Source of the DNA: Rotaria sp. | Taxonomy: Eukaryota | Length of the DNA: 64,000 nt | Direction: 5' to 3' | NCBI GenBank assembly: GCA_905250055.1 | Contig: CAJNOF010000042.1 | Location: 481,805 to 545,804 of the forward strand | Shown: positions 21,330 to 32,200 of the stretch, one piece after another | Layout of the letters: every line of letters begins with the position of its first letter | Position numbering within the stretch: the first letter of the stretch is position 1 | Position numbers and translations under genes: made by a program | Notes under the pieces: generated by a model | What the model was told of the DNA's origin: nothing | What the model saw: only the letters and a program-made list of their open reading frames with translations | Database searches by the model: none

Positions 21330-24240
21330 GAGTTGAAACAGTAATTACTTCGATTCTATTGAGTATTTTTAATAGAACTCTTTAAAGTACAAAAGACTTA
21401 CTATTTATTGTTTATTTTCTGAGTGTTTTCTATGTTAACAGCTAGAAACAAAACACGAAAATTTCAATCGTTTTTATTGAACATATATTTATCAAGTATA
21501 CAGGATTTTGAATTAAAAATATGTCTTTGAAAGTTTCATTATGAAGAAAATCAATCAAATGTTGACATTCTTATAATTTTCAATCAAAGTTGTAATTTTC
21601 GATGATAGTTATAATCTTGAATCTTATTTAGAAATAGTTCGATGATAGGCACTAATCCATAGAATTTTCAAGATTACTCAGCACTTCCAGTGAAAAAATA
21701 ATAGTTGAGGTAAAAATTAGATTACAGATTTTTTCATTTATTACAAAGGAAAATCAATGTTTGATTATAATCATTTTTTTGATTTGATTATTACCCTAGT
21801 TTTCTTTAACATGGGTTGAGACAAATGAAAAACTATTAATGTAGACCACATTTTTCTTTGTTTTCGAATTATAAAGAAACAATAGTTGCATCTTCCTTGT
21901 TGGTTTTTTTTCGTTTCCTTTGATTTCTTTATTCTTTCATTTGTCGTCTTTTTGTTCGTCAATATGATAACTAGGAAGAATGAGCACAGCAGAACAATGT
22001 ATGTAGTGACAAATTAATGATAGATATATAAGAATGAACTGAAAACAACTTAATATAGTTATTTCATATTTGAATAAAATATATGTGATTATAATGACTG
22101 AGAACGTTATATAAATTTCCTGACAACATAAATTGAACGTAATGACCATTTTAGAGAATAAGAAATAGAAGGGTAATTTCAATTTTTAAATATAATTGTC
22201 AACTGTTCACTTTTTACAGATCATCTCCTTGGATCATACAATAAAAAATATATTGTGTTACATTTGCATTCGCGTACATGAACATAAAGTTTTTGAAGTA
22301 AAAAAACAATGAAATACATATATTTTAATTAATTCTATTACACATTTGAATGAAGTCAACCTGATTAATATTTCAACTGCGTTAAATGCAATGAAAAAAT
22401 CAAGAAGTTAGTTGAGTTAAAATGATTAGTACTTACAACTACGATTGATGGTTATAACTCGATTATCTTGTTCATGGAAAATTTTATCAATTATCACTCT
22501 ACCAGTTATAACGACTACGCTACCACTTGCATTCATCTATACAATCAGTCACACTTACTTAGACATATACATCATACACTACATACGTTGGTATACGTAC
22601 ACTCCCACACACAACGATACTCATACCTCATATACTTGACGAGAAGAAAAAATAATGTTTTGTTTTAGTAAAATATCGATTTTTAAAATGCATCATGTGA
22701 AGGGAAAAATACCAATCTTTCCTTCCAATACGCCATTACTTACTTTTTTCAACTTATTGGGATGGTTCTTCATGCTTGATTGATTCCACTTCGAGTCAAC
22801 AGCATTTTTTCCTCACCGCTTCTGTATAAATAATCAAAATACCAACGAATATAAACATAATTTGTTCTTTACTTCCACATATAGGTAAGGTCAATGCAGA
22901 CAAGATGGCCTTGTGATGGTCCAATCAATGCAGCTCGATTACGTCGTCAACGACCGTTGCGGTTTTCTGCTAGAGAACTACCAGTTAAGATTGATCTTTC
23001 TTGATGGATGTCTCCTGTCGAGCAACTAGAAGAATTGGGTTCGTGGTATGTTTTTCCGTGTTTGGTCTGTTTGATTCTCTGAAAAGCGTTGGTTTTTCTT
23101 TGTAGTAGTGCCAATGCTGTAGCCGGTGTTCTAGAATATTTGATCAAACGTAAATATAATATTGATATGGATGTATCTCGTTTATTTATCTATTACAATG
23201 CTCGACGAATTGATTATCAGCATTCAAGTTTCGGAGATTCTGGAGCTACTCTAACAGGCGGTGTGAGAGCAGTACGTAAATATGGTGTTTGTGATGAAAA
23301 AATTTGGCCCTATGACATAAAATTAGTGAATAAACGACCGGGATCATATGCATATCGGGCAGCGCGTCGTTACACTGCCAGACCAGTTAGAGTTCCGATA
23401 AACTTGCCATCAATAAAAACATCGTTGGCTAATGGTCTACCGGTTACACTTAGTCTAATCTTGAGCGAGTCAGCAGATTCCGAGTCAAAGCAAAATGGAG
23501 GCTATATATCCATTCCTAATCTCTCAACTACAACCGTAAACAACTCGTCAATGCACTCCATCGTTATTTGTGGCTATGATGAAAGAACACAGCATTTCCT
23601 AGTACGCAATTCCTGGGGCGAACAATGGGTAAACCGATCTAAAACTATACTAAACTGATTTGAATAATGATTCTTTAGGGTATCGATGGCTATTGTTATA
23701 TTCCATATCAATATTTATCTCATCGGCGACTTGTCAACATGGGGGACAGCGGATGGACCATCTCGGATATTCTTTATCGTACTCAACATTTGCCGGCCAC
23801 GGGCATTATACATGTGCCTAGACATCTTCGAAATAAGAAGAATGCAAAGTCTGAATATCATGCGCCTGTTCAAAGCCGAAATGTATACTATCGTTCTTCT
23901 CGACAGACATAGATGAAGATACCTCTCGAGGTTCATCTTCATCGTATCAAAGACAATTATCAGCGGAAATAAAAGGATAATATTGTGAGGATGTAGGCCT
24001 AGGTTTGTGTCTGTTGGATGTACCTTCAATGTGTTTTGATGTATATGTCGAGGGTACGTATGAGTATGATTATTTGAGTAGATGGAGAAAAACACTGCAC
24101 AGCACATATATGGACATTCACACCGACACTGACGTCGGCACACACCCACAGCACACTCTCATACGCACAAATCCTCAAAAAATTATAAAGTATCATTGTT
24201 CACAAATAAAAGTAGTATCGAAAGTAGAATAAAAAACATA
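21330..24240 (+). repeat. Tandem segmental duplication, unit A (paired with 26575-29950)
   Basis: Long collinear similarity between 21340-21700 and 26580-26900 covers the upstream non-coding sequence. Both units share the promoter region with ctgtataaat, both exons and both introns of the C1-like peptidase gene, and the 3' flank (cacacccacagcacactctcatacgcacaaatcctcaaaaaattataaag / ...catacgcaaaaatcctaaagaaaaattgtaaag). Confidence 0.7.
22894..23912 (+). pseudogene. Papain-fold (family C1-like) cysteine peptidase paralogue A; premature in-frame TGA in exon 1 and oxyanion-hole Gln lost
   Basis: Exon 1 from ATG 22894 reads MQTRWPCDGPINAARLRRQRPLRFSARELPVKIDLS*WMSPVEQLEELGSW|gtatgt. The stop replaces the P of copy B's DLRPW. 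Exon 2 follows acceptor tttgtag and reads (C)SANAVAGVLEYLIKRKYNIDMDVSRLFIYYNARR...MHSIVICGYDERTQHFLVRNSWGEQW|gtaaac. Exon 3 follows ttctttag and reads GIDGYCYIPYQYLS...RQT*. The GSC, H and N-SWG..WG..GY motifs are as in papain. Confidence 0.5.
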
Positions 24241-24249
24241 TTAAGAAGG

Positions 24250-29219: not shown

Positions 29220-32200
29220 GGTCTGAGGTGTATGAGATTGGGCCGACGAAAGAAGTTCAACCACTATCCAATCGGTTTTTAGTCGAGGTCATGTGCAATG
29301 TATAGACCTAAATAAACTATGAATATTTTGAAAAGAATTCATGCCCTCAGTTGATTGCTACGAAGTTGCTGCACTGTTACGGCATCGTTCTAATAAATAC
29401 TGCGGCCCGTCTCAGGAACACCAGAAAAATTGATTTTCGAGTTTCGACTCGAAATCTTGTCAAGAGACAGACCTTAACAGGAATACTTTATTGTCAAATT
29501 TTCAGATTCTATCACTGTTCCTATCTGAAGATACAACTTTGGTAATAGTGTGTCTTCCACATTACCCATATAAAACACTGTATTCGCTGTTATCATTCAA
29601 GGATAGAAGCAAGTCAAAAGATATGAAACTGCTATAATAAATTATTCTCCTTAAGGTCTCCCTTTTAGTAAAATTTCGAGTCTAAATTTGAGAATCAATT
29701 TTCTGTTGCTCCCCAAGGGAACCATGGCGTTTATTTAAAAAATATTGTTAAAGTACAGTAACTACATAGTAATAAGCTAAAGTCATGAACTCTTTTCCGA
29801 GTATTCAAAGCTCATTTAGGCTTACATAATTTATATGGTCTTGACTGAAAAGCGATTGAACAGCTGCTGGACGTACCTCGTTATTTCTGGGTGTATGTTC
29901 GCGTAGAATGAGGATGTGTGACTATGAGTGTATACCCATAGCACTCACTCATACGCAAAAATCCTAAAGAAAAATTGTAAAGTATAATTGTTCAAAAAAT
30001 AAAAGTTGTGCTTAAAGTGAAATAAAATAATATATTAAATTAAAAAGTTTTGACATCGATCAATATTTCTTAAAAAGTCTAAGATAAAACAATGCAAAAA
30101 AACAATCGCAACAGTTTCTCATGTTGAATTATAAAACTAGTTCATGTATTTTAATAATTTCTCGCACTGTTAAATGATTTACAATTCGAATAACTTCAGA
30201 CGACATGCATCGCTTATTTTGTATGTATATATTATTTTTTCATATGTGAAACATATGTATGTTGTCGGTTACTTTTTTTTATGTTAATTATGATATTTCG
30301 AATAAAAAAGACTTTTTCTAAACTTAGTCCGTAAAGTTCTCTATAAAGTCTTGTGAAAAGAGTTTTATAATTGGAAAATGATTTGTGCTTTCAACAATAT
30401 TATACTTCAAAAAAAATTTGTAGTAAAAGGCACATCGTAGTTTTCTTTTTTATAAAATTTATCGTTTCTCTTCTTCTGACTAAAGATGCTTCAGAGCATT
30501 CTAAAAAGACGTTTTTTATGTTTTTCAAATGTACTCATTCTATAAACAAGATCATTAAAACATGAATGAAGAAAAACATTCAAAAAAAGTGTTCTATTCA
30601 GATAGACTTACAATCTGATAACAAAAGATATTTTGCACAATTCACTGAGTTTCTCTTAGGTTACAAAGGGCTATATTCATTTGTTTTTTTTTGTAATGTG
30701 ATCAAAGAGAAACACAGTATGATAAAAGCTTTAAACAGTATCTTGAAAGTAGACTTCTTGAGAATTTAGCACTGTTGACCAAGCAAGTTTTTCTAGTTAT
30801 TCTTTTAAAAGACTGTCTTGTGACAAATTTTGTAGAGAATTTCAAGAATTATATTTTGAGAAAAGAACTCAAGTCGAAATATCTAAAATTGAGCGAAAGT
30901 CCTTGAATATGCTTTCCTCTTCCCCCATTGTTATATGGTTAATAGCAAGTGTTTTGCAATTTATATATAAAAATATGTTATAGAGTAATGCATGCATGAT
31001 TTAGTCCCTCAACTTTGCTTTTTATTTGTATTATATTAATACATCTGTTTTCAATAGAATAATCGCAAGCTCTGTTTGATTAGAACATCGCCTCAACAGA
31101 TTATTATATCATCATATAAAGATAGATATTCATTTTATCTAACAAATCGTCGTATAAATAAATACTTTAGATATGATACATAATTGCAAAGAAGCAAAAA
31201 AACAAAGAATAAAATACTACAATCGGATTGAATCATTTCAATATAAAATAAAATCTAATGAAAATAAGTCACTAGATGAATATCAAGTTCATCATCTATG
31301 TTGTCTCAATGAGAACAATTAATAATTGAATGTACGTTTCAATTATATTATAGAATCAGCATTCTAACATTAATAATGAAGAAAATCATATTGTGAGTCA
31401 GAAGCAAAACTAATATATCAATAATATTAGAAGTCAGTTTGATTTAATAGATGTTATTATTCATATGTATTACCCATGGCGCATGTCTACTCAGACTATT
31501 AGTACTATATAGCAGTACTCATAAGAACAGGTATGATAACGCTTTCAACTTTCCTGTTTCAGCTATAAACAATTGCAGAGAGTATTTTCTATACAAATTC
31601 GAATGAATTATTAGAAGAAGTGCGAATAAATCGAAAAGAAAGCTATTTCAAAATATTTTTTTACTTATCAAAAAAAAATTTTGCGACGTCATCTATGATA
31701 CAAATTTATCTGATAATTGAGACCGATTTCGATTCTGTAAGTAGTACAGGCAGCTCAAATGTATCAAATATTACACGAAAAAATCGCAAATGTTTTTATG
31801 GTATCAGTTTAAATAAATTTCAAAAATATTCATCTGTTTGATACAATACATTACGAAGTAAGACTTTCAACATATAACACCGGTCTAGTAAACATTACAG
31901 TAATTAATAAAACGACGGTAGTTGCTCAATAGTTATTACATGTGTATATATTATCTCCTTTATTCAAAATGTTGAAAAGAAGAATCATTGACTCCAGAAT
32001 AGAAAAAAGGAACTTGATGATGTTCTTATAACATTAACTATTCTTTAGAAATTATAAACATATGATTGATAGGTGTCAAATAATTGATTAAATAATAGTA
32101 ATGATGTTTTTTTGAGCTATTGTGAAATAACTATCTTAATGATGATTCATAAGTAACTACCTTTTTCTCATAAAATACACCTCTATTCAATGAAAAAATT

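What the first reader, a model, noticed from the sequence alone, without database searches (positions are those of the whole stretch)
21330..29950. Young tandem duplication carrying two prodomain-less, signal-peptide-less papain-fold (C1) cysteine peptidase genes; one copy decaying
Two units of about 3.3 kb share promoter (identical TATAAAT box), exons, introns and 3' flank. Paralogue B has an intact Q...GSC...H...N-SWG..WG..GY catalytic architecture but starts only about 40 residues before the active-site Cys, so it has no secretion signal and no inhibitory pro-region. From established knowledge this is atypical for animal cathepsins and reminiscent of bacterial or cytosolic C1-like enzymes. 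Paralogue A has a CCA→TGA stop in exon 1, which turns DLRPW into DLS*W, and has also replaced the oxyanion-hole Gln. This is a snapshot of birth-and-death evolution. Unit A has additionally acquired two transposon insertions absent from unit B, at 24250-24965 and 25067-25855, which dates those insertions after the duplication.
Basis: partly seen in the sequence, partly recalled or inferred. Interest (0 to 1): 0.65.

Follow-up and report, generated by a model that had tools for sequence, protein, structure and literature searches.

The report
Two dead bacterial-type protease genes in rotifer
This is an old tandem pair of bacterial-type papain-like protease genes in a bdelloid rotifer, and both copies, not one, carry disabling mutations, so it is an ordinary case of gene decay in a gene family already known to be horizontally acquired.

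Summary
The tandem duplication is real: unit A is 21341-25918 and unit B is 26566-30201. Each unit carries a three-exon C1A (papain-family) gene with no signal peptide and no I29 prodomain. The two insertions in unit A have clean target-site duplications (TTAA and TA) and empty sites in unit B.

Two claims fail:
- **The duplication is not young.** dS is about 0.29 and non-coding K2P is 0.14-0.37, against about 2% between alleles.
- **Copy B is not intact in this window.** The catalytic His is Tyr, NSWG is NSRG, and the intron-2 acceptor is GG.

A second public haplotype (Rotaria sp. Silwood1, 98.65% identical) keeps those three B sites but has a TGA at B codon 87. B is therefore disabled independently in both alleles. 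Omega is 0.7-0.8 between A and B, and about 1.2 between the B alleles.

The proteins are xylellain-type. The best solved structure is 3OIS (1.6e-31), against about 1e-11 for cathepsin K. Relatives are found only in bdelloids and bacteria. This horizontal transfer and expansion in rotifers is already published (PMC10380794). Intact relatives with the same two intron positions exist in Adineta vaga and in two unnamed contigs.

Verdict: an ordinary pseudogene pair from a known family.

The parts
21341..25918 (+). Duplication unit A (includes two later insertions)
   Evidence: Collinear blastn blocks to unit B
26566..30201 (+). Duplication unit B
   Evidence: Collinear blastn blocks to unit A. The spacer 25919-26565 has no counterpart.
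22825..22831 (+). TATAAAT box upstream of copy A. Its twin in B is at 28147-28153.
   Evidence: CTGTATAAAT at 22822 and 28144. Function was not tested.
22894..23045 (+). Copy A exon 1. It has lost the first ATG that B uses and ends inside the catalytic Cys codon (TG|T).
   Evidence: Gene model and translation
23002..23004 (+). Premature TGA in copy A at codon 37, the Pro of the conserved DLRPW
   Evidence: The same base is present in the public haplotype L001.
23026..23028 (+). Copy A codon 45 is CTA (Leu) at the oxyanion-hole Gln column
   Evidence: Gln in 20 of 20 other members
23106..23628 (+). Copy A exon 2, which keeps the His (codon 201, CAC) and NSWG
23104..23215 (+). 112-nt tract about 98% identical to copy B (28431-28542), against a 70-80% background. 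Probably a gene-conversion patch.
   Evidence: Sliding-window identity. Gene conversion is an inference.
23679..23912 (+). Copy A exon 3 (GYCYIPY and C-terminal tail, stop TAG)
24245..24970 (.). 726-nt insertion in the 3' flank of unit A. It has TTAA target-site duplications at 24241-24244 and 24971-24974 and imperfect terminal inverted repeats. It looks like a non-autonomous DNA transposon.
   Evidence: Junctions compared with the empty site in B near 30035. No other copy in the window.
25073..25854 (.). 782-nt foldback or MITE-like insertion with a TA duplication and 227-nt terminal inverted repeats (84%)
   Evidence: The empty site in B is near 30137.
28207..28367 (+). Copy B exon 1 (keeps DLRPW and Gln)
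28433..28955 (+). Copy B exon 2
28881..28883 (+). Copy B codon 204 is TAC (Tyr) at the catalytic His column. It is CAC in copy A and in the public B allele.
28941..28943 (+). Copy B codon 224 is CGG (Arg) at the Trp of NSWG. It is TGG in copy A and in the public B allele.
29005..29006 (+). The intron-2 acceptor of copy B is GG. It is AG in copy A and in the public B allele. The 51-nt intron would read through in frame.
28530..28532 (+). Copy B codon 87 is CGA here but TGA (stop) in the public haplotype
29007..29219 (+). Copy B exon 3 (stop TAA at 29217-29219)
29426..29702 (.). Inverted-repeat element (91-nt arms, 73%) inside 715 nt of B-specific 3' flank (29219-29933) that is absent from unit A

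Best explanation
The region holds two tandem relics of a short, bacterial-type (xylellain-like) C1A cysteine peptidase gene in the bdelloid rotifer Rotaria sp. Silwood1.

**Origin.** The family entered rotifers from bacteria by horizontal transfer and expanded there (published). This subclade gained two spliceosomal introns before Adineta and Rotaria split.

**Ancestral product (inferred).** It would be a cytosolic papain-fold enzyme of about 300 residues. It would have a Gln/Cys/His/Asn active site and an N-terminal extension of 35-50 residues in place of a signal peptide and I29 prodomain.

**Duplication.** In the Rotaria lineage the gene duplicated in tandem. This was long ago relative to allelic divergence (dS about 0.3).

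**Decay.** Both copies have since drifted almost neutrally into pseudogenes.
- Copy A lost its first ATG, gained a TGA at codon 37 and lost the oxyanion Gln.
- Copy B is hit differently in each haplotype. This window has His-to-Tyr, Trp-to-Arg and a lost splice acceptor. The public allele has Arg87-to-stop.

**Later events.** Two DNA-transposon-like insertions landed in the 3' flank of unit A, another element landed in unit B, and a short probable gene-conversion patch sits at the start of exon 2.

**Shown versus inferred.** The homology, the lesions, the divergence values, the insertions and the allele differences are shown. Loss of function, cytosolic location and gene conversion are inferred.
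For: - **Family.** PF00112 matches at 8e-13 for A and 2e-9 for B. The best solved structure is 3OIS at 1.6e-31, against 2.8e-11 for cathepsin K.
- **Distribution.** The top 120 homologues are bdelloid (Adineta, Rotaria, Didymodactylos), named bacterial, or unnamed metagenomic proteins at about 40% identity. The transfer into rotifers and the expansion are described in PMC10380794.
- **Host genome.** Spliceosomal introns and neighbouring metazoan genes, nicastrin and TMEM17, show this is rotifer DNA and not contamination.
- **Lesions on invariant columns.** In A these are R36, P37-to-stop and Q45L. In window B they are H204Y and W224R. Each of these columns is conserved in 20 of 20 other members.
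- **Splice site.** The B acceptor is GG.
- **Second haplotype.** L001 has the ancestral His, Trp and AG but a TGA at B codon 87.
- **Near-neutral rates.** Omega between A and B is 0.69-0.76 and is not significantly below 1 (Fisher p = 0.14). Between the B alleles it is about 1.2, from 8 non-synonymous and 2 synonymous changes.
- **No asymmetry.** Polarised amino-acid changes number 11 on the A lineage and 8 on the B lineage.
- **Public annotation.** It salvages only a 196-aa fragment from A (P0001) and calls no peptidase gene at B.
- **Intact relatives elsewhere.** A. vaga P0002 and the L002 and L003 genes keep every catalytic residue, with the same two intron positions.
Against: - No expression or protein data could be consulted.
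- The window's B allele has no in-frame stop, and its 51-nt intron 2 reads through in frame. A translated product is therefore possible, though it would lack the catalytic His.
- Omega for the exon-2 core is 0.62 (p = 0.04). That suggests some constraint during part of the time since duplication.
- Copy A keeps Cys, His, Asn and SWG downstream of an internal ATG (MSPVEQ...), so re-initiation cannot be excluded from sequence alone.
- Each B lesion is supported by only one assembly.
Confidence: 0.82

Rival explanations
1. One reading: a young tandem duplication in which B is a functional peptidase without a prodomain and only A is decaying.
For: B has no in-frame stop in this window and keeps Gln, Cys and Asn. 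A has a stop and the Gln-to-Leu change.
Against: - Window B has Tyr at the catalytic His, Arg at the Trp of SWG, and a GG acceptor.
- The other B allele has a stop at codon 87.
- dS is 0.29 and non-coding K2P is 0.14-0.37, so the duplication is not young.
- Omega between the B alleles is about 1.2.
Confidence: 0.04
2. There is residual or new function. Either copy A re-initiates at Met39 (as in the public annotation P0001) to give a truncated but active Cys/His/Asn enzyme, or the window's B allele is expressed as a catalytically dead pseudo-protease.
For: - A keeps Cys, His, Asn, SWG and GY downstream of an in-frame ATG.
- The B open reading frame stays open even with intron 2 retained.
- Omega for the exon-2 core is 0.62, p = 0.04.
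- Both copies keep the TATA-like box.
Against: - The truncated A product would lack the conserved LPxKIDLRPW start of the mature domain and the invariant Gln.
- The public model P0001 simply runs into intron 2.
- The two B alleles carry different disabling changes, and non-synonymous changes outnumber synonymous ones 8 to 2.
- The A and B lineages show no rate asymmetry.
Confidence: 0.1
3. The lesions are assembly or sequencing artefacts and both genes are really intact.
For: Each B lesion is seen in only one assembly. The A tract is identical in both sequences, so the two may not be independent.
Against: - The lesions are many and of different kinds. A has four substitutions within six bases at DLRPW, plus Q-to-L, plus a lost ATG. 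B has three substitutions.
- None is an indel in a homopolymer.
- The substitution pattern across the whole gene is near neutral.
Confidence: 0.03

Closest known systems
Xylellain-type short bacterial C1A peptidases (PDB 3OIS, deposited as 'Cysteine protease'; I recall it as xylellain of Xylella fastidiosa)
   Same: It is the best solved-structure match, at 1.6e-31 over residues 26-254. It shares the short architecture with no signal peptide and no I29 prodomain. It shares the motifs LPxKVDLR, GSC(T/S)ANA, SRLFIYYN, H-A-V, VRNSWG and GY..PY.
   Different: The window genes lie in an animal genome, have two spliceosomal introns and carry a C-terminal tail (W-I-D-I-L-R-x-x-H-L-P-T) found only in this rotifer subclade. 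They are disabled. From memory, not tested here, the N-terminal segment of xylellain lies in the active-site cleft as a short pro-region.
The horizontally acquired, expanded C1A peptidase family of rotifers (Kordis and Turk 2023, PMC10380794)
   Same: The same phenomenon: short bacterial C1A genes in rotifers that were multiplied by later duplication. Many Adineta, Rotaria and Didymodactylos paralogues were retrieved here.
   Different: A and B belong to a small, long-branched subclade with A. vaga I4U23_007196 (P0002) and two unnamed contigs. Bootstrap support for that subclade is 99%. Its link to the main rotifer clade is unresolved, with 2% support for all-rotifer monophyly in a neighbour-joining tree. 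Here the copies are pseudogenes.
Adineta vaga locus CP075495.1:4510352-4527389 (L004)
   Same: It is also a tandem pair of this subclade, with introns at the same two positions. One copy is degenerate: it is frameshifted and annotated as only 121 aa.
   Different: The downstream A. vaga copy (P0002) is intact. The flanks show no synteny with the window. A and B group together at 100% bootstrap, so the duplications are probably independent, or homogenised.
Animal cathepsins L and K and papain (classical C1A)
   Same: The same Pfam family PF00112, with a Cys/His/Asn triad and an oxyanion Gln.
   Different: The similarity is much weaker (about 1e-11 to 1e-5). Cathepsins have a signal peptide and an I29 pro-region, which are absent here.

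Membership tests
Peptidase family C1A (papain family, clan CA) | Significant match to the papain-family domain model | tested here: met
   PF00112 scores 49.3 bits for A and 38.2 bits for B, against a cut-off of 20.7. PDB chains of C1A enzymes also match.
Peptidase family C1A (papain family, clan CA) | Catalytic Cys in the G-S-C motif | tested here: met
   Both copies read GSCSANA. The Cys codon is split by intron 1 as TG|T.
Peptidase family C1A (papain family, clan CA) | Catalytic His | tested here: not met
   Copy A keeps His (codon 201, CAC). Copy B in this window has Tyr (TAC, 28881-28883). The public B allele has His.
Peptidase family C1A (papain family, clan CA) | Oxyanion-hole Gln before the Cys | tested here: not met
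   Copy A has Leu (CTA, 23026-23028). Copy B keeps Gln.
Peptidase family C1A (papain family, clan CA) | Asn of the triad, with Trp, in N-S-W-G | tested here: inconclusive
   Asn is kept in both copies. The Trp is kept in A but is Arg in window B.
Peptidase family C1A (papain family, clan CA) | Uninterrupted, spliceable reading frame (a working gene) | tested here: not met
   A has a TGA at codon 37. Window B has a GG acceptor at intron 2. Public B has a TGA at codon 87.
Xylellain-type short bacterial C1A | Closer to short bacterial C1A enzymes than to eukaryotic cathepsins | tested here: met
   3OIS scores 113 bits, against at most 47 bits for cathepsins. Bacterial and metagenomic hits score 160-180 bits.
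Xylellain-type short bacterial C1A | No signal peptide and no I29 prodomain, only a short N-terminal extension | tested here: met
   There is no I29 hit. The maximum 9-residue hydropathy is 0.76 or less in the 50-54 residues before the Cys, and no homologous upstream exon was found. No dedicated signal-peptide predictor was available.
Xylellain-type short bacterial C1A | N-terminal segment occupies the active-site cleft as a mini pro-region | not tested
   This is recalled from the literature on 3OIS. No structure was predicted here.
Horizontally acquired gene of bdelloid rotifers | Lies in a true host genomic context, with introns and metazoan neighbours | tested here: met
   There are two GT-AG introns. 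Nicastrin and TMEM17 lie on the same window. The locus matches a 795-kb Rotaria contig.
Horizontally acquired gene of bdelloid rotifers | Phyletic pattern: relatives in bacteria but not in other animals | tested here: met
   All named proteins among the top 120 hits are bdelloid or bacterial, and the rest are unnamed metagenomic proteins. The case is published in PMC10380794. Caveat: the taxa of two subclade contigs (L002, L003) are unknown.

The most novel reading that the evidence does not exclude
The A/B subclade (with A. vaga P0002 and the L002 and L003 genes) may be a separate acquisition of a xylellain-type peptidase, or a rapidly evolving offshoot of the known one. It has its own conserved C-terminal tail. 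This locus would then capture haplotype-specific, independent inactivation of the same gene in an asexual lineage, next to an 8.6-kb tract of complete identity between haplotypes. That would be a small natural record of allele-by-allele decay and loss of heterozygosity in a bdelloid.
Probability: 0.2. Interest if true: 0.4.

Novelty: new member of a known kind. Interest (0 to 1): 0.22.

Why it matters
The supposedly intact, unusual animal protease is a decayed copy of a bacterial-type gene. The presence of that family in rotifers is already explained by published horizontal transfer and expansion.

It has modest value in three ways:
- It documents gene death within that expansion. Both paralogues are disabled, and the two haplotypes of one paralogue are hit independently.
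- It shows that the public annotation at this locus is a salvage artefact: a 196-aa fragment from A, and an antisense ORF over B.
- It gives dated markers, namely two insertions that post-date the duplication and a probable conversion patch. These could be useful for studying turnover of foreign genes in bdelloids.

Tried and rejected
- **NCBIfam scan** of B and P0002: no hit.
- **Bacterial promoter and terminator scan** of the 5' region: nothing above chance, and not relevant to a eukaryote.
- **Upstream exons.** tblastn of relatives' N-termini against 20-30.5 kb found only exon 1.
- **Further copies.** Searches of the window for more peptidase copies, or for other copies of the two insertions, the B-specific segment or the spacer, found none.
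- **Synteny** between the A. vaga locus and the window: none beyond the peptidase genes.
- **A as the slower, still-constrained copy.** Rejected, because polarised changes are 11 for A and 8 for B.
- **All-rotifer monophyly,** which would indicate a single transfer: not resolved by neighbour-joining bootstrap.
- **Literature search** for bdelloid, horizontal gene transfer and cysteine protease together: two papers, neither with a relevant title or abstract, and neither read. The relevant paper came from searching 'xylellain'.
- **Structure prediction** was considered and not run. The sequence matches to PF00112 and 3OIS already settle the fold.

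
Full report
**1. What is in the sequence**

Repeat finding and blastn show two collinear, head-to-tail units. Unit A is 21341-25918 and unit B is 26566-30201. 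The start-to-start spacing is 5225-5328 nt. The main block is 1.3 kb at 77% identity (E = 0.0), so this is far beyond chance. The 647-nt spacer 25919-26565 has no counterpart.

Each unit carries a three-exon gene with short GT-AG introns at identical positions. Intron 1 splits the catalytic Cys codon (TG|T). Intron 2 follows the Trp of ...EQW|G.
- Copy A exons: 22894-23045, 23106-23628, 23679-23912.
- Copy B exons: 28207-28367, 28433-28955, 29007-29219.

Both units carry CTGTATAAAT about 65 nt upstream of the start codon.

**2. What the genes are**

Both products match Pfam PF00112 (Peptidase_C1), at 8e-13 and 2e-9. The best solved structure by a wide margin is 3OIS, a bacterial 'cysteine protease', at 1.6e-31. 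Animal cathepsins and papain reach only 1e-11 to 1e-5.

The large protein search returned bdelloid rotifer proteins (Adineta, Rotaria, Didymodactylos), a few named bacterial proteins, and unnamed metagenomic proteins at about 40% identity.

The top hit, P0001, is copy A itself. It is annotated in Rotaria sp. Silwood1 as a 196-aa fragment that starts at the internal Met (MSPVEQ...) and runs into intron 2. Nicastrin and TMEM17 lie on the same window. This is therefore rotifer chromosomal DNA carrying an intron-bearing gene of bacterial type.

Kordis and Turk 2023 (PMC10380794) already report horizontal acquisition of short bacterial C1A peptidases by rotifers. They also report expansion to tens or more than a hundred copies per species, and they use 'xylellain-type' for short bacterial C1A peptidases.

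There is no I29 hit, no hydrophobic N-terminus and no homologous upstream exon. This is a trait of the whole family.

**3. State of copy A**

- Codons 36-38 read TCT TGA TGG (DLS*W), where B and the outgroups read DLRPW.
- Codon 45 is Leu, where 20 of 20 other members have Gln.
- The first ATG that B uses is gone.

**4. State of copy B**

- The column aligned with the catalytic His is Tyr in the window (TAC, 28881-28883). That column is His in copy A, in 3OIS and in every other member examined.
- The Trp of N-S-W-G is Arg (CGG, 28941-28943).
- The intron-2 acceptor is GG (29005-29006), not AG.
- The 51-nt intron would read through in frame. The reading frame therefore looks open, but the product would not be a working papain-type enzyme.

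**5. A second haplotype**

The public Silwood1 contig (L001) covers window 10759-32708 at 98.65% identity.
- Across about 18300-26921, which includes all of unit A with its stop and both insertions, there is not a single difference.
- On both sides of that tract, divergence is about 2%.
- In unit B the public allele has the ancestral CAC (His), TGG (Trp) and AG. It has CGA-to-TGA at codon 87.

Differences were polarised against copy A. The window allele has five derived events: four non-synonymous changes plus the splice site. The public allele has four: the stop, one non-synonymous change and two synonymous changes. Copy B is therefore disabled independently on each haplotype. The public annotation calls no peptidase gene at B.

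**6. Age and selection**

| Comparison | Value |
|---|---|
| A vs B, dS | 0.29-0.31 |
| A vs B, dN | 0.21-0.22 |
| A vs B, omega | 0.69-0.76 (Fisher p = 0.14 against neutrality) |
| Exon 1, omega | 1.3 |
| C-terminal tail, omega | 0.8 |
| Exon-2 core, omega | 0.62 (p = 0.04) |
| Non-coding K2P between units | 0.14-0.37 |
| Divergence between the two B alleles | 0.01-0.025 |
| Omega between the two B alleles | about 1.2 |

The duplication is therefore not young. Most of the time since then looks unconstrained, with perhaps an early constrained phase.

Polarised amino-acid changes are symmetric, 11 on the A lineage and 8 on the B lineage.

A 112-nt tract at the start of exon 2 (23104-23215) is about 98% identical between the copies, against a 70-80% background. 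A short gene conversion explains this best, but that is an inference.

**7. Insertions**

- 24245-24970 is flanked by TTAA duplications.
- 25073-25854 is flanked by TA duplications and has 227-nt terminal inverted repeats.
- Unit B has precise empty sites for both.

Unit B in turn has 715 nt (29219-29933) with no match in A, including an inverted-repeat element. None of these elements recurs in the window.

**8. Relatives**

In a neighbour-joining tree, bootstrap support is as follows.

| Grouping | Support |
|---|---|
| A + B | 100% |
| A + B + two unnamed ENA genes (P0003/L002, P0004/L003) | 96% |
| The above + A. vaga P0002 | 99% |
| All rotifer sequences as one group | 2% |

The link from this subclade to the main rotifer expansion is therefore unresolved.

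P0002 and the L002 and L003 genes keep Gln, Cys, His, Asn-Ser-Trp-Gly and a shared C-terminal motif. Their introns are at the same two positions. The subclade is therefore old and apparently functional elsewhere.

The A. vaga locus is also a tandem pair, with a frameshifted upstream copy. It shows no flank synteny with the window.

**9. Verdict**

'Young' and 'B intact' are refuted.

The best explanation is a pseudogenised tandem pair within a known, horizontally acquired rotifer gene family (confidence about 0.8). Residual function cannot be excluded without expression data (about 0.1). That would mean re-initiation in A or a pseudo-enzyme from B.

This is a new member of a known kind, and interest is low.

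Noticed in passing
window 18300-26921, compared with L001: There is an 8.6-kb tract with zero differences between the window and the public Silwood1 contig, flanked on both sides by about 2% divergence. The right-hand edge coincides with a 27-nt indel just after the first A/B homology block. This could be loss of heterozygosity or gene conversion, or a haplotype switch between assemblies.
   Followed up: partly
window 30250-31190 and 11209-13480, compared with L001: L001 carries window 30250-31190 twice in tandem, a 941-nt duplication polymorphism. The window has about 2.27 kb at 11209-13480 that L001 lacks.
   Followed up: no
L004 6033-6986 (Adineta vaga CP075495.1): An upstream tandem copy of the same peptidase subclade has a frameshift and NSYG in place of NSWG. 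It is annotated only as a 121-aa product and sits next to the intact gene I4U23_007196.
   Followed up: partly
L002 (ERZ12289985) and L003 (ERZ26165376): The closest intact relatives have the same two intron positions but lie on contigs with 47% and 41% G+C. That is well above the roughly 30% of this window. Their source organisms are unknown, so the taxonomic range of the subclade is unsettled.
   Followed up: no
window 1639-2379 (-) and 9925-10362 (-): Two ORFs have Pfam matches: a SecA DEAD-like domain (5.7e-06, just above the cut-off) and Peptidase_M60/enhancin (5.5e-15). They may be further foreign or unusual genes on the same window.
   Followed up: no
L001 15546-15785 (-), corresponding to window copy B exon 2: The public annotation calls a 79-aa antisense ORF across copy B instead of a peptidase gene. 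Its model for copy A (P0001) starts at an internal Met and ends inside intron 2. Both look like gene-prediction artefacts over pseudogenes.
   Followed up: yes
window 23104-23215 and 28431-28542: This 112-nt stretch has at most 2 mismatches between the paralogues, within genes that are otherwise 70-85% identical. It begins almost exactly at the intron 1/exon 2 boundary. It is probably a gene-conversion patch.
   Followed up: partly
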